Below, piece after piece: positions 20,686 to 46,054 of a stretch of DNA of 46,054 bases; the stretch's first letter is position 1, and each line of letters begins with the position of its first letter. The stretch lies in the sequence record ON081052; one strand, given 5' to 3'. A program made the position numbers and the translations under genes. The notes under the pieces were generated by a model. It did no database searches. It was given only the letters and a program-made list of their open reading frames with translations, and was not told where the DNA came from. This stretch comes from Escherichia phage vB_EcoS_SCS31.

Positions 20686-23600
20686 ATGGCACAAATGATC
20701 AAAACAAATATGAGGCTTTGTGATATGGCTGAAGATATTAAGATTTATGGTGCCAAAGGAGGCAGCCAGAAGCAGCATCAACCAGTTGAACAGGAAGACA
20801 ACCTGATTTCATTAAACAAGGTTAAGGTGTTGCTTGCTGTCGCTGACGGAGAGGTTGATTCAAACTTCTCAATGAAGGATTTATACCTTGCTGACGTTCC
20901 TGTGCAAAACCAAGACGGCAGCTACAACTATGAAGGTGTTCGCGCTGAGTTCCGTGCTGGTACGCAGTATCAGGATTATATCGCTGGCCTTGATGGTGCA
21001 AACTCAGAGATTCAGGCTTCCAGAGAAATCACGAACGATACCCCGTACATCATTGCGGTTAACAATACTCAGCTATCAGCTATTCGTGTAAAGCTATATT
21101 GGCCCAGACTGGTTAAGCAAGAAAGTAATGGCGATCTGAACGGAACTACATGCGAGTATGCGATTGACCTGTCTGTTAATGGTGGCGCTTACCAGGAATA
21201 CACTAGCGGAGTTGCTAATGGCAAGACCACTACAGGTTACGACCGCAGCATTCGCGTGAACCTTCCGGCTGAATTTGATAGCGCACTGGTTCGAATCCGT
21301 AAAATTACGCCAGATTCGACAAGTAGCACACTGGTTAACGGGATGCAGATCACAACCTATCAGGAAGTAATTGACGCTAAATTCCGCTATCCGCTTACAG
21401 CCCTGGTTTATGTTGAGTTTGGCTCTGACCTGTTCCCTAACGGCATCCCAACAATCTCCATCAAGAAGCGATGGAAGCTAATTCAGGTTCCGACAAACTA
21501 CAACCCGGAGGCAAGGACTTACAGCGGGACATGGAATGGACTGTTCAAGATGGCGTGGTCAAATAACCCAGCATGGGTTCTTTATGACTTGGTGACAAAC
21601 CGCAGATATGGTCTTGACCAGCGAGAGCTAGGTGTAGAGATTGATAAATGGGGCCTGTACGAAGCTGCGCAATTCTGCGACCAGATGGTTCCAGATGGTA
21701 ATGGTGGAATGGAGCCTCGTTATCTCTGCGACATGGTTGTGCAAAACAAAGTTGAGGCCTACACGCTAATTCGTGATATCTGTTCAATCTTCCGTGGCCT
21801 GACTTTCTATGACGGTGAAAAGATTGGCATCGTGGTTGATAAGCCTCGCAACCCATCTTACATATTCACCAATGATAACGTTGTAAACGGATTGTTCAGT
21901 CGCACCTTTGCCAGTGATAAAAGCCTCTACACTACTGCTAACGTCCAGTTTGATGATGTAGAAAACAACTATCAGCAGGATGTTGAGCCAGTTTTTGAAC
22001 TCGAGGCTACTCGCAGATTCGGATTTAATCCAGTCGACCTTACGGCAATTGGATGTACTCGCAGAAGTGAAGCAAACAGACGTGGAAGATGGCTCCTAAA
22101 AACCAACCTTAGAAGCGAAACTATCAGCTTCACTACCGGGTTGGAAGGCATGATTCCGATGATTGGTGAGGTAATTGCGGTCAATGATGCAGCATGGTCG
22201 AGCAACTATCAGTTAAACCTTTCCGGTCGTATTGAATCAGTCCAGGGATTGCAGGTTTTTACACCGTTTAAAGTTGACGCAGCTCCTGGTGACAGAATTC
22301 TTCTTAACAAGCCTGACGGAAGTCCAGAGGCAAGAACTATTGCCAGCGTTTCGGAAGATGGTAGAACAATCAACCTTAACACTGCTTTCAGTTTTGTGGC
22401 TCAGCCTGACACTGTGTTCGCAATTGATAAGGACAATCTCGCACTTCAGCAGTATGTGGTGACCGGGATTCAAAAAGCAGATTCTGACGGTTCGGATTCA
22501 TTCCAGTATACGATTACTGCTGTAGAGTATGACCCGAACAAGTATGATGAGATTGACTACGGCGTTAACATTGTTGACCGTCCTACTTCAATCGTGGAAC
22601 CTGATAGATTATCGCCACCAGAAAACCTGACCGTATCAAGCTATAGCAAGGTTGTTCAGGGTTTATCAGTTGAGACGATGGTAATTGGCTGGGACAAGTC
22701 GCCATACGCTAAAACATACAATGTTCAATGGAGAAAAGAAAATGGCAACTGGATTAACGTACCCAGAACAGCAAGTACAGAGGTTGATATCGAAGGTATT
22801 TACGCAGGAATCTATGACGTTAGGGTTCGCAGCGTATCAGATACTGAAAACGTGTCTTCCTGGTCTGACATTGTAACGGTATCGCTAACTGGCAAGATTG
22901 GTCGCCCTTCGGCACCTACAGTTATTACGGCGTCAACTGATGAAGTCTTTGGTATCCGTGTTAAATGGGGATTCCCTGAAGGCTCTGGCGATACTGCTTA
23001 CACTGAACTTCAGCAGGTTCCTGATAATGGTGACGGTACTTACAACCCTGATAACGCGAGATTGCTGACGCTGCTGCCATACCCAGCCTATGAATACTGG
23101 CATACGCCAATTCAGCCAGGTAAGGTAATTTGGTATCGCGCAAGATTGATCGACAGAATCGGAAATACCTCTGATTGGTCTGGTTTCGCTAGAGGTATGA
23201 GTACTGACGACGCCAACATTATCAACGATTACATCAAGGTTGATATTGAGGGTTCGGAAGGATTCAAATACCTCGAGCAGAATGCGATTCAGAAGAACCA
23301 GGACATTCAGAATCAGGCAGAATCAATTCTTGAGAACGCATTAGCTAATGACACTGATGTTCGTCGCATGACTAAGGAGAACGGCAAACGTAAGGCTGAA
23401 TATGTTCAGGCGGTTAATCTCATAGCCGATGAAACTCAGGCGCGAGTAGAGGCTCTCACAGCTCTTAAAGCGCAGATAGATGATGAAGTTGTAGCATCGA
23501 TTACAGAAGTTCAGACAGCGCTAGCCACCGAGACAGAAGCAAGGACTACTGCTGACACGGCTCTATCAGCAAGACTTGGTGAAAACGAGGCTGCTCTAAA

Positions 23601-24111
23601 CCAGAAGCTTGATGCTTTCTCCAATGCCACGTCGACTGGTGTACAGTACGGAATTAGTCTTGGCCTGAAATACAATGGGCAGACTTATTCATCCGGTATG
23701 AGCATGGAGCTTGTTGGCACTGGTGGTAATGTTCGTAGTCAATTCATTTTTGACGCAAATAGATTCGCAATTAGTAATGGGATTGGTTCTGGTTCCGGTC
23801 AGTGGCAGCTCCCCTTCGTTGTCGAGAACGGAAACGTAATCATCCAGAGTGCAGTAATCGGTGATGGCTCAATCAGTAACGCGAAGATTGGAAACTTCAT
23901 TCAATCGAATAACTACGTAGCAGGAACTACAGGCTGGAGGATTGATAAATCAGGAAGTGCAGAGCTAAGTAATGCCACGGTAAGGGGTAATCTTTACGCT
24001 AACAATGGTAACTTCGCTTTTAATGGAACCAATAACACGGTTCAGATTAACGGGAATGGAATCACGGTAAACCTACAAAATGGTGGTCGTGTTGTTGTAG
24101 GAGTGTGCTAA
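20686..24111 (+). CDS. central tail fibre / host specificity protein (lambda J-like)
   Basis: 1141 aa; last large gene of tail module; start may be the internal ATG near 20725 (RBS GAGG). Confidence 0.8.
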   Translation: MAQMIKTNMRLCDMAEDIKIYGAKGGSQKQHQPVEQEDNLISLNKVKVLLAVADGEVDSNFSMKDLYLADVPVQNQDGSYNYEGVRAEFRAGTQYQDYIAGLDGANSEIQASREITNDTPYIIAVNNTQLSAIRVKLYWPRLVKQESNGDLNGTTCEYAIDLSVNGGAYQEYTSGVANGKTTTGYDRSIRVNLPAEFDSALVRIRKITPDSTSSTLVNGMQITTYQEVIDAKFRYPLTALVYVEFGSDLFPNGIPTISIKKRWKLIQVPTNYNPEARTYSGTWNGLFKMAWSNNPAWVLYDLVTNRRYGLDQRELGVEIDKWGLYEAAQFCDQMVPDGNGGMEPRYLCDMVVQNKVEAYTLIRDICSIFRGLTFYDGEKIGIVVDKPRNPSYIFTNDNVVNGLFSRTFASDKSLYTTANVQFDDVENNYQQDVEPVFELEATRRFGFNPVDLTAIGCTRRSEANRRGRWLLKTNLRSETISFTTGLEGMIPMIGEVIAVNDAAWSSNYQLNLSGRIESVQGLQVFTPFKVDAAPGDRILLNKPDGSPEARTIASVSEDGRTINLNTAFSFVAQPDTVFAIDKDNLALQQYVVTGIQKADSDGSDSFQYTITAVEYDPNKYDEIDYGVNIVDRPTSIVEPDRLSPPENLTVSSYSKVVQGLSVETMVIGWDKSPYAKTYNVQWRKENGNWINVPRTASTEVDIEGIYAGIYDVRVRSVSDTENVSSWSDIVTVSLTGKIGRPSAPTVITASTDEVFGIRVKWGFPEGSGDTAYTELQQVPDNGDGTYNPDNARLLTLLPYPAYEYWHTPIQPGKVIWYRARLIDRIGNTSDWSGFARGMSTDDANIINDYIKVDIEGSEGFKYLEQNAIQKNQDIQNQAESILENALANDTDVRRMTKENGKRKAEYVQAVNLIADETQARVEALTALKAQIDDEVVASITEVQTALATETEARTTADTALSARLGENEAALNQKLDAFSNATSTGVQYGISLGLKYNGQTYSSGMSMELVGTGGNVRSQFIFDANRFAISNGIGSGSGQWQLPFVVENGNVIIQSAVIGDGSISNAKIGNFIQSNNYVAGTTGWRIDKSGSAELSNATVRGNLYANNGNFAFNGTNNTVQINGNGITVNLQNGGRVVVGVC

Positions 24112-24115
24112 TAAA

Positions 24116-24145
24116 TAAAGCCCCTGAATAGGGGCTTTTCTTTTA
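24116..24145. terminator. bidirectional terminator between convergent genes
   Basis: AAAGCCCCTGAATAGGGGCTTTTCTTTT. Confidence 0.6.
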
Positions 24146-25105
24146 GTACATGTTTGGTATGTATGGAACTGCCATTGATATGTTTGTATCTAAATGGAAA
24201 TGTGCGCCAGTCCGTGTTGAATAGTTTCCAATTACACTACCAAACCCAGACCTGACAGATCCATTAGACATTACGACCCCTTTGTATCTAAGGTTGTTAT
24301 ACCCGCCAGTTACTCGAGTCGTAGCTCCAGTCCTGAGTATCGGGAAGTATCCGCCACCTATCGACTGATATCCATTGCTTATTTGTATAAATCCACTAAG
24401 TACGAATGGTCGCCTAACGCTTGAAAAAACAATCTGACCAGAGCTATTTGACATTGTTAGTCCTGGTCCGGCTGGTGGGGGTTCATTTCTGAATATCACC
24501 AGCTGAACATAAGTACTTGCCGAAACATCATCTGTACCTCCGTAGGTTATATCCCTGCACCATATTGTTGATCCATCTGATTCAAGTGATACGTTTGGAT
24601 TATCCCACTTGCCGAATGGTATGCCGCTAACTGGTAGCGATGCCGCCCCGTTAACCTGTATGCCTCCAACCCATGCTGCTGACATTAGTCTCGAGTTGCT
24701 TGATATAGCAAGGAAATCAGTTGAGTTCTCAACGAGTATCCCTGGGCTTGATGAAGGTGATGCTGGTAGAATTTCAAAACAATTACCCGCAAAGTCAATT
24801 ATTCGACCATTGGCACCATTGAAGTTACTAAGTGTTATCCTGCCAACTCCGTCATTAACCTTTTGGAATCCGTTCATGTAATAAACTTCAGGTATAACAT
24901 CGTAAGCATCAACGTGGACTGCCTTCGTTGGTAGGCAGAAAGCCGTAGAGCCAGGAGACATTGTCAATCCAAAATCCCACGAACTTGCTGGGGTTGAAAG
25001 TCCATTGGTATTTATTGATCCAGTCACAGCAGGTGCCCTTAATCCTGCCGTTATTTCCATCGCTGGTCTTCCGTCATTGAGGTCAATCAATATACCCTGC
25101 GGCAT
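24143..25105 (-). CDS. beta-rich Gly/Ser/Asn-rich protein, possible receptor-binding/tail-associated protein (320 aa)
   Basis: ATG 25105 with RBS AAGGAG, start overlaps lipoprotein stop (TAATG coupling); composition only. Confidence 0.4.
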   Translation of the reverse strand: MPQGILIDLNDGRPAMEITAGLRAPAVTGSINTNGLSTPASSWDFGLTMSPGSTAFCLPTKAVHVDAYDVIPEVYYMNGFQKVNDGVGRITLSNFNGANGRIIDFAGNCFEILPASPSSSPGILVENSTDFLAISSNSRLMSAAWVGGIQVNGAASLPVSGIPFGKWDNPNVSLESDGSTIWCRDITYGGTDDVSASTYVQLVIFRNEPPPAGPGLTMSNSSGQIVFSSVRRPFVLSGFIQISNGYQSIGGGYFPILRTGATTRVTGGYNNLRYKGVVMSNGSVRSGFGSVIGNYSTRTGAHFHLDTNISMAVPYIPNMY

Positions 25106-25356
25106 TATTTCCACTCCTTGCTGCCATGATCTGCAATAGAGCCACCGTAACCGCCGCCAGCCTTGCTTTCAATTCCGGCGTAGCGAACATCAACCTCACC
25201 AGCCGGAACAACTACGCCACCTTTCCATTTAGCTACGCACACACCATTTGCTTGTGTTGCACACCAACCATCCGGGCGAGGACCAGATGAGCAACCTACC
25301 ATCATGATTGCTGCTGCGGCGATGATTGAAAGTTTGATTAATTTAGTCATTTTCAT
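25105..25356 (-). CDS. outer-membrane lipoprotein, Cor/Llp-like superinfection-exclusion candidate
   Basis: N-terminus [25 protein letters not shown]: signal peptide plus lipobox Cys; small size; adjacent to tail fibre region. Confidence 0.5.
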
Positions 25357-27655: not shown

Positions 27656-28306
27656 ATGCAAATTTCAGAATCATGCAAATCAATTTTAAAAGCGCTACAC
27701 ACTGCAAAATCGCTATTTGCGAAGGCTGAAAAGTCCAAGCAGAACTCTCACCTTAAAAATAAGTACGCCACACTTGAAGACGTACTGGCGGCTGTTGAGC
27801 CAGGACTTGATGAGTGCGGGCTGGTGATGTTACAGAGCGTGCTTGATGATGATCAAACTAATCTGCTAAAGGTTGAGACAAAGCTATTTCACGCAGAATC
27901 TGGGGAGTGGGTTAGCTTCTTAATGATTGTCCCAATCAGCAAGAATGATGCTCAAGGTTACGGCTCAGCGCTTACATACGCTCGACGCTACGGAATCACA
28001 GCAGCTTTAGGTCTTAGCCAGACAGATGATGATGGAAATCTTGCAGCTAAGGGTGTTAAAGACTTCAAGCGAGAACTTGAGAAGTGCAGCACTATTGATG
28101 AGCTTCGCAATGTTTGGAAGGAAGCTAAGCAATCACTAGACGCTGCAGGATGGAAGGTTTTCGAGCCACACATCATAGAGCGCAAGGCAGAGATTGAATC
28201 AAATGCGATGACTGGCTTCAACCCAGCAACACCAAAGAAAGTAGCAGAAAAAAGTAGTCCTGAAGAAAAGATTGAAGTAGAATCACAACAAATCGACACA
28301 TTCTAA
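27656..28306 (+). CDS. single-strand annealing protein (ERF-like, putative)
   Basis: Position between exonuclease and SSB; size 216 aa. Confidence 0.45.
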   Translation: MQISESCKSILKALHTAKSLFAKAEKSKQNSHLKNKYATLEDVLAAVEPGLDECGLVMLQSVLDDDQTNLLKVETKLFHAESGEWVSFLMIVPISKNDAQGYGSALTYARRYGITAALGLSQTDDDGNLAAKGVKDFKRELEKCSTIDELRNVWKEAKQSLDAAGWKVFEPHIIERKAEIESNAMTGFNPATPKKVAEKSSPEEKIEVESQQIDTF

Positions 28307-28353
28307 ATTTAACTTGGCTGCGGCCCCAACATAAAACGAGAAGAGATAAAAAC

Positions 28354-28815
28354 ATGCATGTAATTACTGGTCAGATTCGCCGCGCTCCATTCACTAAAGA
28401 AGGTCGCAACGCTAACGGTAACTGGAAAATGTTCGCCATCGAGATGAGCGAATCATACAAGACTAAAGATGGCGAGCGTAAGTACAGTAATTACCGGATT
28501 ACGATGTTTGCCAGTGAGGCGCAGATTAGTTGGTATGATGAAGCATTTCAGGAAGGAAAAGTTATTTCTGTTAGTGGTGATTCATTGGCGGTTAATGAGC
28601 GTGAGCATAATGGAAAGGTTTATATTACGCTTGAGTTGCAGAATCCTCGATTGATGTTTAGCCAGCGCGGCAGTGAATTAGCTACACAGCAACAGCGCCA
28701 GCAGCATCAGCAACAGCAGCGGCAGCAACCACAGCATCAAAGCCAGTTTGAAGACGATATTCCGTTTGCTCCTATTGGTCTTCAGTACGGTATGTCAAAT
28801 ATTTATGTACTATAA
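28354..28815 (+). CDS. ssb: single-stranded DNA-binding protein
   Basis: Gln-rich linker and C-terminal acidic tail ending DDIPF-like (FEDDIPFAPIG), a hallmark of SSB. Confidence 0.65.
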   Translation: MHVITGQIRRAPFTKEGRNANGNWKMFAIEMSESYKTKDGERKYSNYRITMFASEAQISWYDEAFQEGKVISVSGDSLAVNEREHNGKVYITLELQNPRLMFSQRGSELATQQQRQQHQQQQRQQPQHQSQFEDDIPFAPIGLQYGMSNIYVL

Positions 28816-29215
28816 AGTCTGTTTCAAATGTGGTGGGCTTAAGCCCATCACGGAGTTCTATAAACATAAAGCCATGGCTGACGGACGTGTAAATAAGTGT
28901 AATGAATGCAATAATGTTGATGTTAAATCAAATAGAAAATCAAAAATAGAATATTACAGAGAGTACGATAGAGAAAGGGGCAATAGACAGAAGGATGGTT
29001 ACGTTAAGGAGTATAGATCAAGAAACCCCATAAAATATAATTGCCACACGATTTTAAATAACGCTATAAGGGATGGTAAGATCAATAAAAAACCTTGCGA
29101 GGTTTGCGGGAATGATAAGGCGGTAGCTCATCATGATGATTACTCAAAACCAATGGATGTAAGATGGCTATGCCAAGCTCACCATATGCAATGGCACGCA
29201 GAAAACGGAGAATGA
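28748..29215 (+). CDS. HNH endonuclease (putative; start probably internal)
   Basis: C-terminal CEVCG ... HHDDYSKP ... WLCQAHHMQWH zinc-finger/HNH motif. Confidence 0.55.
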   Translation: MKTIFRLLLLVFSTVCQIFMYYKVCFKCGGLKPITEFYKHKAMADGRVNKCNECNNVDVKSNRKSKIEYYREYDRERGNRQKDGYVKEYRSRNPIKYNCHTILNNAIRDGKINKKPCEVCGNDKAVAHHDDYSKPMDVRWLCQAHHMQWHAENGE

Positions 29216-29232
29216 TTAAACGGATAAAAGAT

Positions 29233-29257
29233 AAGGCCCCCTTCGGGGCCTTTTTTA
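29233..29257. terminator. bidirectional terminator
   Basis: AAGGCCCCCTTCGGGGCC + T6. Confidence 0.6.
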
Positions 29258-32074
29258 CGAAGCTGTATTTACCTGAAGATATGCACCATTAGTTGCACCA
29301 AACCATGCGTAAGCAGATCCGTAAGTTGTTGGGTTGTCATTTAAAATGAAATCACCCGCTCTAATTACGCACTTTGCTCCATATGTATCAGTGGGTCTTG
29401 CACTAAACCCATAGTCAACATATCTAAAACCAACCTTCGTTACGTTATCGTTAAGCGGGAAGATCCTTAAGAAGCTGGAATCTCTAAAGTCATTGTTCCT
29501 GAAAATTCCTCCTGTAAAGTTATCCATATCAAACATTGTTGTTAAACTTGAAGCAACAGTATTCATGAACTTGTTGCCTTCATATGTCGGAGCTACTACT
29601 TCATAGCCAACTCTTAGCTGAACAAATCCCCCATCAATAATATTGTCCTTGACTATTGGATATTGCCCGCCGATTGCTAAGCCACCAAACCCAGGTGTAA
29701 ATTTGCAACTATTATTACTAAATATAGTGCCAACCCACGCCTGATTTGTAAGGTATGGTGCCTTAGTGTCTGTCATGGTGTTCCCGGTGATAATCAATCC
29801 ATTCTTGGCCTGGATTCCCTCCTGGTAGCCCTGAATCGCTACGCCGCCACCAATCATAATGTTGCTGGATATAATAATGTTGCTCAACCCCTCATTAACA
29901 CCCCAATCACTTTCTGCATCATTTGTTATCAGTAAGTAGTGAGAAGAAGCCCTGCCAGTAGCGTCCGTAGTTATAATGCTTGTATTGCCTTTGCATATAA
30001 CATTGTTTGCCGCAAAAACCTCAACAAACATACCAGCACCTTCGTAGTAGTTATCCGTAACCGTTACGTTATTGCCAGCCGGGGTTATCCTTGACTGGAT
30101 AGATATTGGATAATAGAACTTGTTGGCGTGAGCGTAAGACCTTCGGCTTCCCTCGGATATTGCATAATCCTCCGCGAAAGTATGCCATGCCCTTCCTGAC
30201 TGTTTTGTTGTGTTTCCTATAAACTCTGAGTAGTCACAGTTTCTTGTGATTAAGCAGTAGTTAGCGTTGTATCTGAAGCTTGAATTTCTAAGAGATACGA
30301 ATGCATTAGGTAAGCCATTAAGAGCATCGGCATTAACAAAGGCCCTCGAGGCATTAACCTCCATACCCTCGATCACAACTGATGCGCATCCTTCAACCAT
30401 AAAACCAAACCAGTCTTCTCTTGGTTTATGCTCTGTATCCGTTGGTTGGATTGAGTAATCTGAAAAGTCAGTATTCCAGTTGAGTCCGCTAGCTTTAAAT
30501 GTGCAATATTTAAGCCCGAAAACAACCCTCTCGGGTGATGTGCTTCCAGAGATATCAATATCAACATCATTATTGGCAAAAATGTCAACAGTAAGTCCAT
30601 TGAGGAAGAATGCCGTTTGCCTTAACACTCTGTACTTATCATTGTACTGAACACCATCGGAGAATGAGACTTTCAGTCTTCCAGCGCTAATTCTTACCTT
30701 CCTGTTTGTATTGTGACCAAGGTTTATACATGCCATAACCGAGGCGTTTGATTCATTAACTCCAGACACATCATGACCAGCCCATTCGGTATGGATATCA
30801 TCAACACCTCCCGTAAACCTAACCCAGCAACCATTTTTACCTGGTGATGTCTCACCCGCTCCGCTAAGGAATCCTGGGAGCGTGGAATATGTACCATCAA
30901 ATGGAACTGTTGGGCTAAAGATGGTAACCCCATTGTGACTACTCTTGCTTACTGATGGATCCCAGTAAAACAAACCACCTCCAGAGTTTGCTCCAGAAAT
31001 ATAAGACCTGACATTTGCCAAGTTTCCATTCGTAGTTGGTTGCCGGATTAGTTCATAAATTGAATTAACTGAAGATAGCCCTAAATTACTCCTGGCAAGG
31101 CTTTTATCTTCAATATCAGAGAAATTCAATGATTTGTTGAAAGTCTCAGATTTTGAATAAACATCAAGTAAGCCCCTTACTCGCTGGGCGCTAGCTCCGC
31201 CAACCTGACTTCCTGATGCGACATAAAGCGCCTCTCTTGAATAGTAAGTTTTGCTTGGTGCCGTGCCAGTCTGAGTTAAATCAATCACCCTGTACGCATT
31301 ATCTGAGCCGGTAGATGCTGAAACTTGTATGTTCTTAACACCAGTAAGCCCCCTTGCTGACTTAACCTCAATCGTACAAAGTGTGCTATCGGAGTAGGTT
31401 GTATTTATCACCTCTGGAGCGTTGATCATTGCTGACTTTTGGCATAGGTATCTAGCCCCGGACTTGAAATCAAACGTATTCCAGTCAAGTTCTGTCAACT
31501 GAGGTGTATTCGAGCCACCAATACCAATATTGGCAAGAGTTACCAAAGTACCAGCGTCACCAGCATTATTAATTGCTGCAATTGTAGCGTCACGGGCAGC
31601 TGTTGTTGTGTTTCTTGCACTAACAGCAGTAGCAGCGCTATCTGCGGCGGCAATCTGGCTAGCTAAAGCATCCGCTGCTCCTTGCACTGACTGGCTTGCC
31701 AATTGCTCAAAGCGAGGCCAATCAAAAGAATCCTGACCAATGAAATCAATCAGGCTCTGAATGCTAGTTTCCCTACTCTGATAATAACGCAGAGTCTCTG
31801 CAACATTCTGAGCCAAACCCTGAACGGTAATCCCATCGTGAGCAAGGATCGCATAACCAGTTCCGGCAGGAACAGTTTCAGAGTTAGGGTTGTAAACATT
31901 CAATCTGGTATCGCTGATAATTTCTGAGATGGTGTAAATCTGTACTGGTTCAGTTTTAAATACGATGGTTGCACCAACTCTGATCAGTGTAAGTGGCATG
32001 CTCCATGTCGTCCCAACGCCAGTTACCTCGCCATTTGCAGCTAGTGAAGCTGTTCCAAGATCATAAATTGCCAT
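29255..32074 (-). CDS. tail fibre / tailspike-like protein, possible depolymerase (approx 939 aa)
   Basis: Ala-rich helical segment (AADSAATAVSARNTTTAARDATIAAINNAG) then long Gly/Asn/Thr-rich region suggestive of beta-helix; ATG 32074 with RBS GGAGAC. Confidence 0.65.
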   Translation of the reverse strand: MAIYDLGTASLAANGEVTGVGTTWSMPLTLIRVGATIVFKTEPVQIYTISEIISDTRLNVYNPNSETVPAGTGYAILAHDGITVQGLAQNVAETLRYYQSRETSIQSLIDFIGQDSFDWPRFEQLASQSVQGAADALASQIAAADSAATAVSARNTTTAARDATIAAINNAGDAGTLVTLANIGIGGSNTPQLTELDWNTFDFKSGARYLCQKSAMINAPEVINTTYSDSTLCTIEVKSARGLTGVKNIQVSASTGSDNAYRVIDLTQTGTAPSKTYYSREALYVASGSQVGGASAQRVRGLLDVYSKSETFNKSLNFSDIEDKSLARSNLGLSSVNSIYELIRQPTTNGNLANVRSYISGANSGGGLFYWDPSVSKSSHNGVTIFSPTVPFDGTYSTLPGFLSGAGETSPGKNGCWVRFTGGVDDIHTEWAGHDVSGVNESNASVMACINLGHNTNRKVRISAGRLKVSFSDGVQYNDKYRVLRQTAFFLNGLTVDIFANNDVDIDISGSTSPERVVFGLKYCTFKASGLNWNTDFSDYSIQPTDTEHKPREDWFGFMVEGCASVVIEGMEVNASRAFVNADALNGLPNAFVSLRNSSFRYNANYCLITRNCDYSEFIGNTTKQSGRAWHTFAEDYAISEGSRRSYAHANKFYYPISIQSRITPAGNNVTVTDNYYEGAGMFVEVFAANNVICKGNTSIITTDATGRASSHYLLITNDAESDWGVNEGLSNIIISSNIMIGGGVAIQGYQEGIQAKNGLIITGNTMTDTKAPYLTNQAWVGTIFSNNSCKFTPGFGGLAIGGQYPIVKDNIIDGGFVQLRVGYEVVAPTYEGNKFMNTVASSLTTMFDMDNFTGGIFRNNDFRDSSFLRIFPLNDNVTKVGFRYVDYGFSARPTDTYGAKCVIRAGDFILNDNPTTYGSAYAWFGATNGAYLQVNTAS

Positions 32075-32096
32075 TATGTAAAGTCTCCATTTGTAA

Positions 32097-32116
32097 AATA
32101 GCACGAATTGCTAAGT
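32097..32116. promoter_or_regulatory. palindromic motif copy (AAATAGCACGAATTGCTAAG), orientation ambiguous
   Basis: Lies between primase terminator and tailspike start on minus strand. Confidence 0.4.
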
Positions 32117-32139
32117 TGGATTGTAGCATCTTTCAGGCA

Positions 32140-32162
32140 TAAAAAAACCTCCCTAAGGAGGT
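32140..32162 (-). terminator. rho-independent terminator (minus strand)
   Basis: Hairpin CCTCCCTAAGGAGG with T-run on minus strand after primase stop. Confidence 0.55.
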
Positions 32163-33088
32163 TAGTTAGTCAATAAATCGCTTGCCTTGTATATTCGCTT
32201 CCTGATGCCGCTCTTGAATGAGTATTCATCATTTGGTATTACCACGTCAATGTTCCTGTCATCCGCAACGCAAAGCAACTCCCTGTCAAGACGAGTACAA
32301 GCGACCCTTAATTTGAAATCCTTTAGCGCGTAAGCAACCATTTCCATGTTGTAACTGGAGTGGCAAACAAGTACACAGCTGTTACCAGTAGCAAGATGAA
32401 CGTGAACACCATCAATCCAATTATCGGCAAGATAAGCATACTCACTATCCTTAAAGGCACCAATAACAGCAATAGACTGGCGAGTATAATCTTTTGCAGC
32501 ATAACCAACGCCTCCATCTTCATTGATAAACATTACATTGCACATATCATCTGATATGCCATCATTATAAGCCATAAAGCACGGTATTGCGTGTATTAGT
32601 TCGCCTGATCTTGTCCTGCCAACATCAAAACCAAACTCGCTATAGATACCCTCGTATATACTGAGTGGAGTTGATTCTACTCTTTCAGTCCTTTCCATTA
32701 TCTCTAAGCATCTTTCGTGGTCAATCTGAGCACCCATTTTGTAGAGTGATGTTCTTGATGATTGCTTGTTTGCTTTAGTTACAACCTCAACAGGAATTAG
32801 GTTCAACCACTCACCGAGAACGTCGATACATTCACTGAATGACTCCCCTCTCATCTTCTGTAACCACAGAATTCCATCGCCTGAGCCACACTGGTTGCAG
32901 ATAATGCCGCCATCACCTTCTTCGCTAACCTTGTTAGTCCAGCGGCCACGGTCGTTGCCGCCGCAATATATACATGGCTGATGCTTTTTGGTCTGGAAGA
33001 ATTTTGGGTCTGCGCCGCAAATCTGAACCATTGCGTCAGCCCATAAACCTTTCATCTTTTGTAGTACTTCTTTCTTATCGTGATTCAT
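32162..33088 (-). CDS. DNA primase (zinc-ribbon + TOPRIM-like, putative)
   Basis: CIYCGG ... CNQCGSGDG zinc-binding pairs near N-terminus; ATG 33088 with RBS GGAGGTG. Confidence 0.55.
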   Translation of the reverse strand: MNHDKKEVLQKMKGLWADAMVQICGADPKFFQTKKHQPCIYCGGNDRGRWTNKVSEEGDGGIICNQCGSGDGILWLQKMRGESFSECIDVLGEWLNLIPVEVVTKANKQSSRTSLYKMGAQIDHERCLEIMERTERVESTPLSIYEGIYSEFGFDVGRTRSGELIHAIPCFMAYNDGISDDMCNVMFINEDGGVGYAAKDYTRQSIAVIGAFKDSEYAYLADNWIDGVHVHLATGNSCVLVCHSSYNMEMVAYALKDFKLRVACTRLDRELLCVADDRNIDVVIPNDEYSFKSGIRKRIYKASDLLTN

Positions 33089-33143
33089 ATGCACCTCCAT
33101 AAACAATAAAGGCACCATACATAATGTAGAGTGCCAATGTTTA

Positions 33144-33650
33144 TCAAATCGTGCTTTTTTTCTCTGCTTCTCTCTTTTTCTTATTCTCTTCTTTAATCTT
33201 ACGCCATGATCTGGCAGGCGGCTTTGTTGCTAACTCCTCTTTCTTAACAACTCTAAGCATTTCTCGACGGTCACAACGCAATGTTAAAGGCTTACCATTA
33301 CTATCAAATCGAAGGTCTGGACGAATGAAGCTAGCTCGATAACCCTCGCCTGTACGCTTGTACTTACCGTGTAATTTCTGCGCACCTTTAGCTGAAATCA
33401 TTCCGCGTTTACACCATTCAGAAACTACTGCATGTGTCACATTAGCGGCTTTTGCTAGCTTCGATTTACCACCATAAAAATCAAGAACAATCTCTAGCCG
33501 CGCGCGTAGCCCGGCTCTTACTTCATCTTTTAAAACATAGTAGCCTGAAGGTCGTTTGCGTTCTTTCTTGTCTTCGGTGCGATGTGTTCCGTTATTACCG
33601 TTTAATGTTCGCTTGTCAACTGCACCAGTTGATGCCGCAATTCTCGTCAT
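33144..33650 (-). CDS. HTH DNA-binding protein (Cro/YdaS-like, putative regulator)
   Basis: Segment GGKSKLAKAANVTHAVVSEWCKRGMISAKGAQKL resembles a helix-turn-helix; basic Lys/Arg-rich C-terminus. Confidence 0.4.
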   Translation of the reverse strand: MTRIAASTGAVDKRTLNGNNGTHRTEDKKERKRPSGYYVLKDEVRAGLRARLEIVLDFYGGKSKLAKAANVTHAVVSEWCKRGMISAKGAQKLHGKYKRTGEGYRASFIRPDLRFDSNGKPLTLRCDRREMLRVVKKEELATKPPARSWRKIKEENKKKREAEKKSTI

Positions 33651-33750
33651 TATCAATCTCCAATAGCATTTTTTGTTAAAAGCCATTCTGATTTGATGGT
33701 AGTATTGTACTCAATTAAACGCTACAAGACAATTTTATAGGAATTTAGAT

Positions 33751-35745
33751 ATGCTTGCCGTAGAGAAGCTGGTTGCCAACTTCGATAAGAGAAGAATCAA
33801 ACAGATTCAGAAAGACTACTCATTTGGTGAGATAACACCTTACGAGTTTCAGTGCGTGACATTTGATGAAATCGGAAAGGCTATTGGTAAGTATGAGGCG
33901 CCATTTATAGCAGACCTTTCCGTATCTGCGGGTAAGACAATCATCTTGCCGATGATTGGAAAGCGCATGGAGCAATTAGGGTTGCCTTATATGGTTCTTT
34001 CTCGCCAGTCAGAGATAATCAGCCAGAATAGAGAGGAGCTTAGAAACTTCGGCATCCGTAATAGCGTCTATTGCGCTGGCCTTAACGTTAAATCAGTTTA
34101 CTACCCAACCATAGTGGCTAGCGAAGGTACGGCAGCTAACGGCTTATTTAAGGGGCTTGGTGACTACGTTCCGGCTGTTATAGCTATCGATGAGTGTCAT
34201 ATGGTTGATCACATGGATATCGTTGAGGCTGAAGAGAACGAAGAAACATTTGAGCAAATGAGCACAAAGAAAGGCGAGATGGTTTTTAAGGATGGTGAGT
34301 ATACTGGCTTAATAGGAACTGGTCGTTCGCAATACACACTAATCATTACTGAGATGAAACGTCGCTGCCGTGAGAAATACGGGCGGGAGCTTCGTATATT
34401 CGGCCTAACTGGCAGCCCGTATCGCAACAACGACCATATCGTCGTTAGTAACCCTAATATCCGTGGATTTTGGCGAAAGACGGTAATTCAGGTTCCAACC
34501 AATTACCTGGTTGATTTGGGATTTGTTGTGCCAACAGTTTACGGTGAAGTTGGTGATTTGGGTTATGACCTTGCTGAGTTTATGCCTGACGGAAGCGATG
34601 GTGTGAAAGACTTTGGCAAAAAAGAAATGAATGAAATGGAAGAGAAAATCCACCAAAGCCAATCCATGACTCAAAAGATTATGCAGTTCGCAGCCAATTT
34701 CATGGAGACTCGCAACTCTGCGCTTGTGACATGCTCCGGTAAACGTCACTGCGAGGAAGCAGCAGCGGCGCTTCCTGAGGGCGTGACTTGGGCTATAGTA
34801 ACTGACTCTACAGGTGAGAAAAAGCGACGTGAGATTCTAGCTGACGCTTCAGATGGTAAGTATAAGTTCATCTTTCAGATTGGCTGTCTCACAACCGGAG
34901 TAAATGTCCCGCCGTGGGATACGTCAATAATTCTTCGCAAGGTTGGTAGTATCACGCTCCTTATTCAGTTACTTGGTCGTGGAATGCGAATCCTCAAGAA
35001 GAAACACAAGGAAATGGGCATGGTTAAAGATGATCACGTGGTTCTAGACTTCGCAGGAACCCTTGATGATATGGCAGAATTATACTTTGACCCAATCATA
35101 GAAGAGGTTCAGGACCAGAAATTTAAGTCTACTCATGATGCTTGTGATAAGCCAAGAGTGTGCCCGGAGTGTTCTTACGAAAACTCCTCATTTTCAGGTC
35201 GCTGTAATAATGTGATTGCCGGTAAGCGATGCGAGCACTTCTTCAAGTTTAATATTTGTGAAGATGTAGAAGACCCACAGACAAAGGTTATATTAAAGAA
35301 GGGGTGTGGCGAGAAGAACGACATTGCTGCCAAAAACTGTAGATGTTGTGGTGAGATGTTAATTGACCCTAATGCAAAACTTTCCGGCAAGATGTACCGT
35401 CAGGGGGATTGGTTGCGAGTTTACGGATTTGGCATTGGTTTAACAAAGAATCAAACTGGCATAGTTGCCCGTTACGAAATCATGGCGCATAGTGGTCAGA
35501 AGTTCATTGCATATGAAACATTCTTTCCAGAAAGTGACCATCGAGTTTGCTCTGTTAAGTGGAAAGCATTTTGCCAGACTCACATACAGAACAAAACAGA
35601 GGCTTTTAGGATTGGTCGCTTGCGTAATGCGAAAATGATAATGACAAATGCCAGCCAGTTCCGTGAGCCAATGCGAGTGACTCATAGAAGAAATCAGAAA
35701 GGCCGGGATATTATAGCTAATAAATCTTTTACTATGGAGGATTGA
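33751..35745 (+). CDS. SF2 DEAD/DEAH-box helicase with C-terminal Cys-rich zinc-ribbon region
   Basis: DECH motif (AIDECHM), helicase-like segments, multiple CxxC pairs near C-terminus. Confidence 0.75.
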   Translation: MLAVEKLVANFDKRRIKQIQKDYSFGEITPYEFQCVTFDEIGKAIGKYEAPFIADLSVSAGKTIILPMIGKRMEQLGLPYMVLSRQSEIISQNREELRNFGIRNSVYCAGLNVKSVYYPTIVASEGTAANGLFKGLGDYVPAVIAIDECHMVDHMDIVEAEENEETFEQMSTKKGEMVFKDGEYTGLIGTGRSQYTLIITEMKRRCREKYGRELRIFGLTGSPYRNNDHIVVSNPNIRGFWRKTVIQVPTNYLVDLGFVVPTVYGEVGDLGYDLAEFMPDGSDGVKDFGKKEMNEMEEKIHQSQSMTQKIMQFAANFMETRNSALVTCSGKRHCEEAAAALPEGVTWAIVTDSTGEKKRREILADASDGKYKFIFQIGCLTTGVNVPPWDTSIILRKVGSITLLIQLLGRGMRILKKKHKEMGMVKDDHVVLDFAGTLDDMAELYFDPIIEEVQDQKFKSTHDACDKPRVCPECSYENSSFSGRCNNVIAGKRCEHFFKFNICEDVEDPQTKVILKKGCGEKNDIAAKNCRCCGEMLIDPNAKLSGKMYRQGDWLRVYGFGIGLTKNQTGIVARYEIMAHSGQKFIAYETFFPESDHRVCSVKWKAFCQTHIQNKTEAFRIGRLRNAKMIMTNASQFREPMRVTHRRNQKGRDIIANKSFTMED

Positions 35746-39193: not shown

Positions 39194-39688
39194 ATGAATT
39201 GGAATGATTTTCTTGAGTATAGAGATGGCAGGCTTTACTGGACTGACCCGCATTCAACAAAACTCAAGCCAGGTGATGAGGCTGGTAGCAGGCATCATAG
39301 GGGTTATTGGTACATTCGCAGATATGACAAAACAATGTCAAGGCACCGAATCGTATGGGAGATGCACAACGGACCAATACCAGAAGGCATGGAGATAGAT
39401 CATATAAATCACGTCCCTGGAGATGACAGGATTGAAAACCTAAGAATGGTCACAAGAAGGCAAAACAATCAAAACAAAAAATTAGATGGAAGAAATACAA
39501 GCGGACACGTCGGGGTAAGCTGGAGCAAGAAGACAAACAAATGGAGAGCAATGATAGGCATAAAGGGAGAGGACGGAAAGAGGAAAACTTTATACGTTTA
39601 CTATGGTGATTCTTTCGATGACGCAGTGTCAGCAAGAAAGAGAGCTGAAGTTGAGTACTCATTTCACGAAAATCACGGAAGAAGCTAG
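39194..39688 (+). CDS. HNH homing endonuclease
   Basis: HRIVWEMHNGPIPEGMEIDHINH ... RIENLRMVTRRQNNQNK; N-terminus nearly identical to 17224 product. Confidence 0.8.
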   Translation: MNWNDFLEYRDGRLYWTDPHSTKLKPGDEAGSRHHRGYWYIRRYDKTMSRHRIVWEMHNGPIPEGMEIDHINHVPGDDRIENLRMVTRRQNNQNKKLDGRNTSGHVGVSWSKKTNKWRAMIGIKGEDGKRKTLYVYYGDSFDDAVSARKRAEVEYSFHENHGRS

Positions 39689-39689
39689 A

Positions 39690-39738
39690 AATAGCACTTT
39701 TTGCCTAAAGCATGCCGTATAAATGCGGCATAATTACC
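39690..39738 (+). promoter_or_regulatory. phage promoter, palindromic motif class
   Basis: AATAGCACTTTTTGCCTAAAG, hairpin GCCGTATAAATGCGGC, CATAATTAC, CATCGAAACGAGA. Confidence 0.45.
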
Positions 39739-39764
39739 ACATCGAAACGAGATGAGGAATTGTA

Positions 39765-40238
39765 ATGATTTACGTATTTGATATCGATGGAACTATAGCT
39801 AATAATGAACATAGAAGTCACCTCTTGCCATACAGTGACCTTCACTTGACTTCAAGTTGGAAGGATTACAATAAAGCCTGTTCTGGAGACTCACCAATAA
39901 TCCCAATGATAAACATGATGAACAAACTTGCGGAATTATGTCAGGTTTACATTATGACCTCCAGAAGTGATGAAGTTGAATGGAGAACACTTGAGTGGCT
40001 TCAGGATAATGAGGTTGAGTATGATTCGATATACATGAGAAGTCGACATGACAACCGAAAAGATTACAAAATAAAAGAGGAATGGCTTAATGAAATCAGT
40101 GGTGGCGATAAAAGCAATGTGGTTATTTTTGAAGATAACCCACAAGTAATTAAGCACCTAAGGAGTTGCGGATACACCGTTATGGCCGTATGTGAATATG
40201 AAGAACTACCTAAAGATTGCGAATCTCACGGAGAATGA
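39765..40238 (+). CDS. HAD-superfamily phosphatase / nucleotidase (putative)
   Basis: N-terminal FDIDGTIA (DxDGT) motif typical of HAD phosphatases. Confidence 0.5.
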   Translation: MIYVFDIDGTIANNEHRSHLLPYSDLHLTSSWKDYNKACSGDSPIIPMINMMNKLAELCQVYIMTSRSDEVEWRTLEWLQDNEVEYDSIYMRSRHDNRKDYKIKEEWLNEISGGDKSNVVIFEDNPQVIKHLRSCGYTVMAVCEYEELPKDCESHGE

Positions 40239-40795
40239 AAATGACTAAATTATTTATCCTTAATGGCCCCGCTGGAGTTGGTAAGGATACTATAGCGGAT
40301 ATCATGGTTGAGACTGGTGTCGCCAAAGAAAAGGTATCATTCAAGTCACCAATGTTTAACGTTGCTAGAGGTATTCTTTCAATAGATGAATTCGATTGGT
40401 TTATTGAAAACTACAACAATCGCGACGAGAAGGAGAAACATCAGAAAATTCTAGGTGGAAAAAGCATTCGAGAGTTCATGATCTGGATTAGCGAGTCTGT
40501 AATGAAGCCAGTCTTTGGTGATGATGTTTTTGGTAAAAGGCTCGCCCAGTCACTTAGTGATGGTTGCTACATTTGCGCTGACGGTGGATTTGCTAGCGAG
40601 ATTAAGCCACTGATCGACGCTGGTGTTGAGGTCACGTTAATCAGATTGCATAGGGCGGGGCACACATTTGATGGCGATAGTCGCTCATACATTCACGGGG
40701 TGTGCGCAAGAGAAATTGATGTTCGTGTTGTTGGTGGTGATATTGATGGAACATCAGCATTGGTAAGGCACGTAATAAATAGCACTAATTGCTAA
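40235..40795 (+). CDS. P-loop kinase, dNMP-kinase-like (putative)
   Basis: Walker A GPAGVGKDT near N-terminus; stop lies in promoter copy. Confidence 0.55.
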   Translation: MKMTKLFILNGPAGVGKDTIADIMVETGVAKEKVSFKSPMFNVARGILSIDEFDWFIENYNNRDEKEKHQKILGGKSIREFMIWISESVMKPVFGDDVFGKRLAQSLSDGCYICADGGFASEIKPLIDAGVEVTLIRLHRAGHTFDGDSRSYIHGVCAREIDVRVVGGDIDGTSALVRHVINSTNC

Positions 40796-40826
40796 AGATA
40801 ATAATAAAAACTGAGTTATCATTAAC
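40778..40826 (+). promoter_or_regulatory. phage promoter, palindromic motif class
   Basis: AATAGCACTAATTGCTAAAG ... GTTATCATTAAC ... CATCGAAACGAGA. Confidence 0.45.
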
Positions 40827-40863
40827 ACATCGAAACGAGATGAAACAAACGAGGAAACACAAG

Positions 40864-41040
40864 ATGACTAAAATGATTTATTGCACCAAGAACAACTCCA
40901 AGACGCTTCCATTTACAGTTAACCAGCCGTACAATGCAGAGTATCAGGGTGACGGATATTACAAGATTTACGGAGACGATATGACGTGGATTTTAGCACC
41001 GATTGATGGTTCGCTTGTTGAATTTATTATCGCAGAATAG
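40864..41040 (+). CDS. hypothetical small protein
   Basis: ATG 40864 after conserved leader. Confidence 0.3.
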   Translation: MTKMIYCTKNNSKTLPFTVNQPYNAEYQGDGYYKIYGDDMTWILAPIDGSLVEFIIAE

Positions 41041-41169
41041 CGCATCTAAAACATAGCTTTACAAGTGGGGGCCTTTTGGCTCCCTTTTTTTTGCTTCTTT
41101 TCCGAACAGGGCTACTGTATCATGTTTACACTAACTTAAACATTGACAAATAGACAAATGGAGGATCAC

Positions 41170-41385
41170 ATGAGGGAAGTAATCAACGCCGCTACGGCGT
41201 CAACTGGAGGGGCAGCGGTAACTGGAGCGGCAACTGGTCAGATGACTATAGCAATAATCAGCCTTATCGCTTTAATCATTTTTGGTGCGTGGGGTGCTTA
41301 CTGGAAGTTTAAGGATAGCCAGGCGATTCGGCGCGCTCTTGAATCAGGAGACTTAAAAACAGCAATCAAGATAAGGAGTAAGTAA
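41170..41385 (+). CDS. holin (putative)
   Basis: Small protein with hydrophobic segment MTIAIISLIALIIFGAWGAYW and charged C-terminus; directly upstream of endolysin. Confidence 0.45.
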   Translation: MREVINAATASTGGAAVTGAATGQMTIAIISLIALIIFGAWGAYWKFKDSQAIRRALESGDLKTAIKIRSK

Positions 41386-42236: not shown

Positions 42237-42252
42237 TAGGGGCTATATTTTT
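42222..42252. terminator. bidirectional terminator between lysis genes and minus-strand genes
   Basis: AAAAAAGCCCCTTAATAGGGGCTATATTTTT. Confidence 0.55.
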
Positions 42253-42586: not shown

Positions 42587-42589
42587 AAA

Positions 42590-46015: not shown

Positions 46016-46054
46016 ATCAGATTACCCAGAACCACTGGTATCATAAAGGCATTA

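What the first reader, a model, noticed from the sequence alone, without database searches (positions are those of the whole stretch)
29255..32116. Large tailspike-like gene located in the replication module, away from the tail operon
A protein of about 940 aa on the minus strand has an Ala-rich helical neck and a long Gly/Asn/Thr-rich region suggestive of a beta-helix depolymerase. It is preceded by a palindromic motif copy and lies between the SSB/HNH genes and the primase. It is a probable host-range determinant, such as a capsule or O-antigen depolymerase, on its own transcription unit, which favours modular exchange.
Basis: inference. Interest (0 to 1): 0.5.

Follow-up and report, generated by a model that had tools for sequence, protein, structure and literature searches.

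The report
Side tailspike gene of a T1-like phage
This is the ordinary side tail-spike gene of a T1-like coliphage, a protein predicted to cut the host's surface sugar coat, and it sits exactly where the whole phage family keeps this gene, so the finding is correct but not new.

Summary
The window is a near-copy of Escherichia phage vB_EcoS_ACG-M12 (Drexlerviridae, Guelphvirus). The flagged ORF is real: minus strand, 29255-32074, ATG start, 939 aa. It is ACG-M12 gp31, annotated "tail fiber protein".

It is built from modules:
- **aa 1-125:** the virion anchor, shared with about 900 T1-like phage records and with solved Klebsiella depolymerases.
- **aa 126-185:** a helical neck with 33% Ala.
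- **aa ~186-300:** a middle domain that is exchanged separately.

Its position between the recombination/SSB genes and the primase is the family norm. T1, Rtp and FritzSarasin have the same layout, and the BASEL paper describes it.

A terminator hairpin, an extended -10 and an inverted copy of the phage's repeated 17-bp promoter box precede the gene. The hairpin and the box recur upstream of the fibre gene in T1 and FritzSarasin.

It most likely depolymerises O-antigen, possibly O6, as a non-essential first receptor. Enzyme activity is inferred, not shown.

The parts
29255..32074 (-). Coding sequence of the lateral tailspike / tail fibre: 939 aa plus stop, ATG at 32074. It corresponds to ACG-M12 gp31.
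   Evidence: ORF list. Annotation of NC_019404. PHROG 24092 'tail fiber protein' full-length, 1999 bits. 556 homologues.
31700..32074 (-). aa 1-125: N-terminal virion-anchor domain, the only part conserved across Drexlerviridae. It is distantly related to the N-terminus of the side tail fibre of lambdoid phages.
   Evidence: tblastn finds 900 phage records, including Klebsiella 397 and Escherichia 337, plus lambdoid phages HK140, mEpX1 and HK446 at 33-37% identity. PDB sequence hits 7LZJ/7VYV/7VZ3 cover aa 1-182 at E about 1e-33. Rtp rtp50 is 74% identical over the first 144 aa only.
31520..31699 (-). aa 126-185: Ala-rich helical neck, presumably a trimeric coiled coil.
   Evidence: 33% Ala. 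Helices predicted at 119-170 and 175-181, with low pLDDT as expected for a monomer model of a coiled coil. The homologous region of DpK2 is a triple-helical bundle.
31175..31519 (-). aa 186-300: beta-rich middle domain that is exchanged independently of both flanks.
   Evidence: pLDDT about 70-90 with beta strands. In CEB_EC3a and P0012-P0015 this block is only 13-50% identical while both flanks are 80-99% identical.
31055..31174 (-). aa 301-340: linker and recombination junction between the T1-type N-terminal half and the receptor-binding module.
   Evidence: P0022 is 86% identical up to aa 342 and then unrelated. Similarity to the P22-like tailspike P0121 starts at about aa 318-340. phiEB49 gp24 carries an extra Tail_spike_N domain inserted here.
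29258..31054 (-). aa 341-939: receptor-binding module, a right-handed parallel beta-helix and predicted polysaccharide depolymerase. Conserved charged residues: invariant E515, R516, R628, E635, E685 and Y750; near-invariant E553, D583 and H712.
32146..32163 (-). GC-rich hairpin AACCTCC-TTAG-GGAGGTT followed by T7: an intrinsic terminator directly after the primase stop codon (32162).
   Evidence: A hairpin plus T-run with a different stem sequence is present at the same place in T1, FritzSarasin and Klebsiella phage P11.
32120..32128 (-). TGcTACAAT: candidate extended -10 promoter for the fibre gene.
   Evidence: Sequence read. The exact GATGCTACAAT is found once in the window. TGCTATTAT lies at the aligned position in FritzSarasin and P11. 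Function is inferred.
32096..32112 (-). 17-bp palindromic box AGCAATTCGTGCTATTT. It is an inverted copy of the upstream box of the phage's repeated promoters and lies between the candidate -10 and the ribosome-binding site.
   Evidence: 13 copies against 0.22 expected. Orientation analysis. The same inverted copy lies 16-22 nt before the fibre ATG in T1, FritzSarasin and Rtp.
32085..32088 (-). GGAG ribosome-binding site, 10 nt before the ATG.
   Evidence: Sequence read.
29233..29252 (.). Hairpin AAGGCCCC-GAAG-GGGGCCTT between the convergent HNH gene and the fibre gene: terminator of the fibre transcript and probably bidirectional.
   Evidence: 8 pairs, 6 of them GC, followed by a T-rich tail.

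Best explanation
The gene encodes the lateral (side) tailspike of a T1-like siphovirus.

**Anatomy.** The N-terminal 125 aa dock a presumed trimer to the tail tip. An Ala-rich coiled-coil neck and a small middle domain hold out a C-terminal right-handed beta-helix.

**Mechanism.** The beta-helix binds the host's surface polysaccharide and most probably cleaves it. The target is most likely O-antigen and possibly E. coli O6; because that antigen is neutral, a glycoside hydrolase is expected. Cutting through this layer would bring the tail tip to an outer-membrane protein, the terminal receptor, which is read by the J-type central fibre and the gene set downstream of it (24143-25350). The sugar step should therefore decide which smooth strains can be infected but be dispensable on rough strains.

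**Expression and exchange.** The gene sits at the family's fixed lateral-fibre locus. It is probably transcribed from its own promoter behind a terminator. Its modules are swapped by recombination at the conserved 5' anchor and at the aa 301-340 linker.

**Shown here:** homology, predicted fold, synteny and mosaicism.
**Inferred:** trimer formation, catalysis, sugar specificity, promoter use and presence in virions.
For: **Identity and annotation.**

**Anchor.** It is homologous to the anchor of the depolymerases DpK2 and Depo32. DpK2 was localised to the tail tip by immunogold labelling and strips K2 capsule (PMC8552709).

**Receptor-binding module.**
- It is 62% identical to a tailspike with a P22 Head_binding domain. 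That tailspike occupies the canonical tailspike slot of a Salmonella prophage, next to gtrABC.
- The same module occurs in Citrobacter phage K1M ('tail spike') and, more distantly, in Kagunavirus, Kayfunavirus and Vectrevirus phages.
- Acidic, basic and aromatic residues are invariant or near-invariant at 27-50-residue spacing along the helix: E515/R516, E553, D583, R628/E635, E685, H712, Y750.

**Host range.**
- ACG-M12 lysed 4 of 4 O6:H1 isolates and CFT073.
- It also lysed 2 of 2 O14 strains, which lack a true O-antigen (PMC7685785), and 4 of 6 rough strains.
- Phages with 96% and 72% identical modules were isolated on ATCC 25922 and CFT073. Both strains are O6, from my own knowledge.

**Other support.**
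- The ACG-M12 tail ends in 12-nm fibres, which suits a spike.
- Synteny holds in T1, FritzSarasin and Rtp.
- The BASEL paper gives the same functional model for the family.
Against: - No enzymatic test exists for this protein or for any member of its C-terminal module family.
- The local Pfam and NCBIfam scans gave no hit.
- I could not map the conserved residues onto the model, so an active-site groove is not demonstrated.
- The original authors stated that no depolymerase gene was demonstrable in ACG-M12, and no halo is reported for it.
- Host range is not cleanly O6. One O6:H25 strain was resistant, while some O18ac:H7, O25:H1 and O135:H6 strains were lysed in spot tests.
- The O6:H1 UPEC strains may also share capsule types, so the data do not separate O-antigen from K-antigen.
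Confidence: 0.8

Rival explanations
1. The architecture and virion position are the same, but the target is a capsular (K) polysaccharide of uropathogenic E. coli, such as K2 or K5, rather than O-antigen.
For: The closest solved relatives of the N-terminal anchor are Klebsiella capsule depolymerases. Many fold neighbours are capsule depolymerases or lyases, including K1 lyase, K5 lyase, KP34p57 and Acinetobacter tailspikes. Sensitive strains are O6:H1 UPEC and CFT073, a lineage that is usually encapsulated (my own knowledge).
Against: The anchor is a shared docking domain and says nothing about the target. The receptor-binding module itself is 62% identical to a P22-like Salmonella prophage tailspike placed beside gtrABC O-antigen glucosylation genes. 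From established knowledge, characterised tailspikes in that setting (P22, Sf6, HK620) target O-antigen. No Klebsiella phage carries this C-terminal module.
Confidence: 0.12
2. The beta-helix is a binding-only fibre tip. It recognises the polysaccharide or another surface structure but does not cleave it.
Against: Several acidic residues are invariant or near-invariant (E515, E553, D583, E635, E685) across homologues down to 25% identity, which is more than binding alone usually requires. Most fold neighbours, and the closest homologous context of P22-like tailspikes, are enzymes.
Confidence: 0.07
3. The protein is not a virion component. It is a soluble enzyme or a replication-module protein that happens to be large.
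For: Only its location among the recombination and primase genes.
Against: The N-terminal anchor is shared with about 900 tail-fibre and tailspike genes and with a depolymerase localised on virions. The location is the conserved lateral-fibre locus.
Confidence: 0.01

Closest known systems
Lateral tail fibre genes of Drexlerviridae: T1 'putative tail fiber' (gp26), Rtp rtp50, and BASEL FritzSarasin bas04_0030
   Same: The locus is the same: regulator, then primase, then fibre, convergent with SSB, Erf and exonuclease VIII. The N-terminal anchor is the same. A hairpin plus an inverted 17-bp box lies upstream in each. The Rtp record already notes a 'beta-helix fold' for rtp50.
   Different: Beyond about aa 120-340 the sequences are unrelated, so each carries a different receptor-binding module.
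Klebsiella Webervirus capsule depolymerases DpK2 (phage RAD2, PDB 7LZJ) and Depo32 (phage GH-K3, PDB 7VYV/7VZ3)
   Same: The N-terminal 182 aa are homologous at E about 1e-33. The overall plan matches: anchor, triple-helix neck, then beta-helix. The phage family is also the same.
   Different: The beta-helix shares only about 13% sequence identity. The target there is Klebsiella K2 capsule. In Webervirus the gene follows the SSB-like gene on the same strand and lacks the 17-bp box.
Tailspikes of P22-like prophages and phages: Salmonella Johannesburg prophage protein P0121, with HK620 (PDB 2VJI) and P22 gp9 as the characterised archetypes
   Different: The N-terminus is the T1-type anchor plus neck and middle domain, not the 113-aa P22 Head_binding domain. 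The virion is a siphovirus that also has a separate terminal-receptor system.
Escherichia phage phiEB49 gp24 and Citrobacter phage vB_CfrS_K1M tail spike
   Same: They carry the same C-terminal module, at 72% and about 59% identity. phiEB49 also shares the T1-type N-terminal half, and its host CFT073 is lysed by ACG-M12.
   Different: Both carry a Tail_spike_N (PF18668, TSP1/Gp66-type) domain before the beta-helix, which this protein lacks.
Phage lambda-type side tail fibre (Stf) N-terminus
   Same: There is distant homology to aa 3-98 at 33-37% identity in the lambdoid phages HK140, mEpX1 and HK446. The role is the same: an accessory, non-essential fibre.
   Different: Lambda Stf is a long fibre with a chaperone-assisted tip, not a beta-helix spike.

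Membership tests
Drexlerviridae lateral tail fibre / tailspike | Conserved N-terminal anchor of about 120 aa | tested here: met
   900 phage records match aa 1-125. Identity is 74% to Rtp rtp50 over aa 1-144 and 54% to T1 over aa 1-113.
Drexlerviridae lateral tail fibre / tailspike | Gene lies between the recombination/SSB genes and the primase, outside the tail operon | tested here: met
   The window layout equals that of T1, FritzSarasin and Rtp. The locus is described in PMC8594841.
Drexlerviridae lateral tail fibre / tailspike | Protein is part of the virion, at the tail tip | not testable with these tools
   Shown only for the homologue DpK2 by immunogold labelling. ACG-M12 electron microscopy shows 12-nm terminal fibres.
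Phage tailspike polysaccharide depolymerases (right-handed parallel beta-helix, pectate-lyase-like) | Central right-handed parallel beta-helix | tested here: met
Phage tailspike polysaccharide depolymerases (right-handed parallel beta-helix, pectate-lyase-like) | Catalytic acidic residues in a substrate groove | tested here: inconclusive
   E515, E635 and E685 are invariant; E553 and D583 are near-invariant.
Phage tailspike polysaccharide depolymerases (right-handed parallel beta-helix, pectate-lyase-like) | Homotrimer | not tested
   Only a monomer was modelled. The low pLDDT in the neck is compatible with a coiled coil that needs partner chains.
Phage tailspike polysaccharide depolymerases (right-handed parallel beta-helix, pectate-lyase-like) | Cleavage of a defined surface polysaccharide | not testable with these tools
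   No experimental data were found for this module. The original paper reports no depolymerase.
Pfam PF27114 (Phage_tail_beta) | Profile match above threshold | tested here: inconclusive
   The local Pfam copy returned nothing for the query, and none of six homologues scanned locally returned this family either. The 96%-identical P0001 and nearly all listed C-terminal homologues carry a precomputed PF27114 hit.
P22-type tailspike (gp9 family) | N-terminal Head_binding domain (PF09008) | tested here: not met
   No Pfam hit in the query. P0121 has the domain at residues 1-113. Similarity to the query starts only after that domain.
Fibres with a C-terminal intramolecular chaperone (Peptidase_S74) | C-terminal S74 chaperone domain | tested here: not met
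   No hit in the query. The domain is found in other alleles at this locus, for example P0033.

The most novel reading that the evidence does not exclude
The inverted copy of the phage's 17-bp promoter box lies between the fibre gene's own extended -10 and its ribosome-binding site. The same arrangement is conserved in T1, Rtp, FritzSarasin and this phage. It could be an operator through which one phage regulator, perhaps gp29 encoded two genes upstream, activates the standard promoters and at the same time holds back or times tailspike expression. Together with the terminator hairpin it could also serve as the conserved 'handle' that lets whole tailspike cassettes move between T1-like backbones.
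Probability: 0.2. Interest if true: 0.4.

Novelty: already known. Interest (0 to 1): 0.15.

Why it matters
This protein is the practical host-range determinant of a phage that was proposed for treating uropathogenic E. coli biofilms.

Recognising it as a probable O-antigen depolymerase, possibly O6-specific, corrects the 2012 statement that ACG-M12 has no depolymerase gene. It also explains the serotype pattern of that phage's host range. Finally, it marks clean junctions for engineering host range: the 5' anchor and the aa 301-340 linker.

As biology it adds nothing unexpected. The locus, the modular build and the functional model are already described for the family.

Tried and rejected
- **Profile scans.** Pfam-A and NCBIfam scans of the protein gave no hit. 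The relevant family, PF27114, appears to be missing from the local copy.
- **E. coli prophages.** I searched 5,426 complete E. coli genomes for prophage copies of the C-terminal module, hoping to read the host serotype. There was only one weak 270-nt match, so no inference is possible.
- **Terminal receptor.** I tested whether the terminal-receptor locus equals Rtp rtp44/45, which the BASEL authors link to LptD. The window protein is only 41% identical to rtp44, so I do not claim LptD.
- **Salmonella O40 versus E. coli O6.** I looked for a structural link between Salmonella O40, the serogroup of serovar Johannesburg from my own knowledge, and E. coli O6. The O-antigen review gave none.
- **Hairpin as a repeat.** I first took the 'palindromic motif' to be the terminator hairpin. 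That hairpin is unique in the window. The repeated motif is the 17-bp box instead.
- **Motif in the literature.** A full-text search for the 17-bp motif found nothing relevant.
- **Alternative promoters.** A sigma-70 promoter using the box as -35 in the fibre direction has no -10 at a usable distance (sequence read). The promoter-like sites listed inside the gene are at chance level: 12 found against 12.8 expected.
- **GTG start at 32104.** Rejected, because all homologues start at the ATG.
Full report
**What the window is.** The flagged region matches Escherichia phage vB_EcoS_ACG-M12 at the same coordinates. ACG-M12 is a 46,054-bp member of Drexlerviridae, Braunvirinae, genus Guelphvirus. 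The window has the same length as that record and differs by 3,058 substitutions with no indels. The differences fall in blocks that are 8-16% divergent, alternating with blocks that are 100% identical. The public annotation therefore applies to the window directly.

**The observation.** A minus-strand ORF runs from 32104 (GTG) to 29255. The true start is the ATG at 32074, giving 939 aa:
- A GGAG lies 10 nt upstream.
- Every homologue begins MAIYD or MALY.
- The record annotates 29255..32074 as 'tail fiber protein'.

The protein matches PHROG 24092 (tail fibre) end to end. Of the 62 nucleotide differences from ACG-M12, 44 are at third codon positions and only 9 change the protein, so the gene is under purifying selection. 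Residues 126-185 are 33% Ala and fall within a region predicted helical. The C-terminal half is moderately rich in Gly, Asn and Thr. SSB and an HNH endonuclease converge on the 3' end, and the primase lies upstream.

**Anatomy of the protein.** Block-wise identity to 46 relatives and pairwise alignments show four exchangeable parts.
1. **aa 1-125, the anchor.** This is the only part shared across the family. tblastn finds it in 900 phage records, including Klebsiella 397 and Escherichia 337, and more distantly in the side tail fibres of the lambdoid phages HK140, mEpX1 and HK446. By sequence, aa 1-182 match the solved Klebsiella depolymerases 7LZJ, 7VYV and 7VZ3 at E about 1e-33. The RAD2 paper shows that this protein, DpK2, sits at the tail tip (immunogold labelling), has a triple-helical neck and strips K2 capsule.
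2. **aa 126-185, the Ala-rich helical neck.**
3. **aa ~186-300, a beta-rich middle domain.** It is only 13-50% identical in CEB_EC3a and four metagenomic relatives, although both flanks are 80-99% identical.
4. **aa ~341-939, the receptor-binding module**, reached through a conserved linker (aa 301-340). P0022 is 86% identical up to residue 342 and unrelated afterwards.

**The receptor-binding module.**
- **Fold.** AlphaFold2 on a 47-sequence alignment gives mean pLDDT 79.7, mostly above 90 from residue 370 to the end, with the strand pattern of a long beta-helix.
- **Foldseek.** The top hits are CBA120 TSP2, K2-2 TSP, Depo32 and Fri1 gp49. Sequence identity to all of these is 7-15%, so no solved structure is a close relative.
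- **Sequence relatives.** The module is 72% identical to phiEB49 gp24, about 59% to the 'tail spike' of Citrobacter phage K1M, and 62% to a Salmonella protein with a P22 Head_binding domain.
- **Context of the Salmonella protein.** It occupies the tailspike slot of a P22-like prophage, after the homologues of gp4, gp10, gp26, gp7, gp20 and gp16. It is followed by gtrABC-type O-antigen glucosylation genes and an integrase.
- **Size of the family.** More distant copies at 33-40% identity occur in Kagunavirus, Kayfunavirus and Vectrevirus phages and in a 72-kb phage. The exhaustive HMMER scan found only 18 clusters at E below 1e-30. Hundreds more share just the first ~100-150 residues of the module.
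- **Conserved residues.** In an alignment of 29 members down to 25% identity, E515, R516, R628, E635, E685 and Y750 are invariant, and E553, D583 and H712 are nearly so. Their 27-50-residue spacing is what a stripe of residues on successive rungs of the helix would give.

**Location.** The gene's position is not a peculiarity of this phage.
- T1 (Tunavirinae), FritzSarasin (Tempevirinae) and Rtp (Braunvirinae) all have regulator, primase and fibre on one strand, converging on SSB, Erf and exonuclease VIII.
- The Rtp record already describes rtp50 as a 'putative tail fiber with beta-helix fold; similarity to T1 gp26 limited to the N-terminal region'.
- The BASEL paper (PMC8594841) describes exactly this locus. 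It sits between conserved recombination and primase/helicase genes, and only the 5' end of the fibre gene is conserved. The authors propose that these fibres bind O-antigen as a non-essential first receptor.
- In Klebsiella Webervirus the spike follows the SSB-like gene on the same strand, still within the replication and recombination module.

**Transcription signals.**
- **Terminator.** Directly after the primase stop codon lies the hairpin AACCTCC-TTAG-GGAGGTT followed by T7 (32163-32146).
- **Candidate promoter.** TGcTACAAT (32128-32120) follows; it is an extended -10.
- **Palindromic box.** The 17-bp box AGCAATTCGTGCTATTT (32112-32096) comes next, then GGAG and the ATG.
- **Conservation.** An alignment with T1, FritzSarasin and Klebsiella P11 shows a hairpin plus T-run at the same place with different stem sequences. 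TGCTATTAT lies at the aligned position in FritzSarasin and P11. The 17-bp box is present in T1 and FritzSarasin.
- **3' end.** A strong hairpin (29252-29233) lies between the convergent genes.

A separate transcription unit is therefore plausible but unproven.

- It occurs 13 times in the window, against 0.22 expected by chance.
- In most of the other copies, read along local transcription, it is AAATAGCACGAATTGCTAAAG followed about 20 nt later by TATAGTTAC-like -10 sequences. Most of these lie 55-70 nt before the next start codon. There it is the upstream box of the phage's repeated promoters, centred near -42.
- The copy in front of the fibre gene is the only strong match (3 or fewer mismatches allowed, but this one exact) that lies inverted relative to the gene it precedes. 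It lies downstream of the candidate -10 and has no -10 on its usual side.
- The same inverted copy lies 16-22 nt before the fibre start codon in T1, FritzSarasin and Rtp.
- I found no description of this motif in the searchable literature. It remains an unexplained but conserved regulatory feature.

**Target and mechanism.** In Chibeu et al. 2012 (PMC3347319), ACG-M12 showed this pattern in spot tests:
- It lysed all four O6:H1 isolates and CFT073.
- It lysed both O14 isolates and four of six rough isolates.
- It lysed a few O18ac:H7, O25:H1 and O135:H6 strains.
- All O1, O2, O8, O25:H4 and O75 strains were resistant.

O14 strains lack a true O-antigen (PMC7685785). Phages whose module is 96% and 72% identical were isolated on ATCC 25922 and CFT073; both strains are O6 from my own knowledge.

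The pattern fits the family model. The spike opens a specific O-antigen, here probably O6, and is not needed on rough strains. A terminal outer-membrane receptor is read by the J-type fibre and the genes at 24143-25350. I do not name that receptor, because the protein there is only 41% identical to Rtp rtp44. From my own knowledge the O6 antigen is neutral, so a hydrolase is more likely than a lyase.

The capsule alternative is not excluded by host range. It is disfavoured because the module's closest non-siphoviral home is a P22-like Salmonella prophage with gtr genes.

**Comparison with what is known, and novelty.** The gene is annotated in GenBank. Its locus and modular logic are published for the family, and homologues of its anchor have solved structures and shown depolymerase activity. 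What this analysis adds is modest:
- This allele carries a confidently predicted beta-helix with conserved acidic residues, contrary to the 2012 statement that no depolymerase gene was demonstrable.
- Its module is shared with P22-like, Kagunavirus and podoviral tailspikes.
- O6 is the likely target.
- An inverted promoter box is conserved upstream.

The finding is correct and ordinary.

**Verdict.** Novelty: already known. Interest: 0.15.

Noticed in passing
window 2114, 2745, 5964, 18844, 25421, 25738, 32096, 33143, 36161, 37854, 40777, 44817, 45999 (17-bp sites): A 17-bp box, AGCAATTCGTGCTATTT (core TAGCA-N5-TGCTA), occurs 13 times against 0.22 expected by chance. In most copies it sits about 23 nt upstream of a TATAGTTAC-type -10, and usually 55-70 nt before a start codon, so it looks like an activator or UP-type box centred near -42 of a repeated phage promoter. 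The copy before the tail-fibre gene is inverted and lies downstream of an extended -10. The same holds in T1, FritzSarasin and Rtp. No description was found in the literature.
   Followed up: partly
whole window versus NC_019404 (L001): The window has exactly the length of ACG-M12 and differs by 3,058 substitutions and no indel. Nine blocks are 100% identical (for example 1-3543, 28434-31789 and 39650-46054) and alternate with blocks 8-16% divergent, mostly at third codon positions. In the 28000-34000 stretch checked, ECH1 (also 46,054 bp) does not share the divergent blocks. One block boundary falls inside the fibre gene at codon 95/96, so the receptor-binding part plus HNH and the SSB 3' end are identical while both flanks differ. 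This looks like cassette exchange. However, a total lack of indels at 15% divergence is odd for natural sequence.
   Followed up: partly
window 24143-25350 (minus strand): Downstream of the J-type tail protein (20695-24111) lie a 320-aa protein and a small lipoprotein gene. This is the family's terminal-receptor-binding and superinfection-exclusion locus. The 320-aa protein is only 41% identical to Rtp rtp44, so the LptD specificity proposed for Rtp cannot be transferred. Homologues occur in 423 phage records.
   Followed up: partly
phage record PP134917.1 (Pseudomonas phage PsgS01F, 44,679 bp): A record labelled as a Pseudomonas syringae phage has the same length as Escherichia phage vB_EcoS_UALMA_PCEc3 and carries a tail-fibre module 96% identical to this one. 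The host label is probably wrong, or the phage came from a contaminating coliphage.
   Followed up: no
window 17224-17721, 28874-29215 and 39194-39688: Three HNH endonuclease genes are scattered through the genome. One interrupts the tail operon between the tape-measure and minor tail genes, and one lies directly beside the 3' end of the tailspike gene. A homing endonuclease next to the exchangeable cassette could promote its transfer.
   Followed up: no
protein aa 330-470 (window about 30665-31087): The first 100-150 residues of the receptor-binding module (motif GGGxFYWD...HNGITIFSPTVPWDG) are shared by hundreds of otherwise unrelated tailspike-like proteins, including Pseudomonas, Providencia, Cronobacter, Hafnia and Vibrio phages and even Synechococcus phages. 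This may be a widely reused adaptor or cap domain at the start of beta-helices.
   Followed up: no
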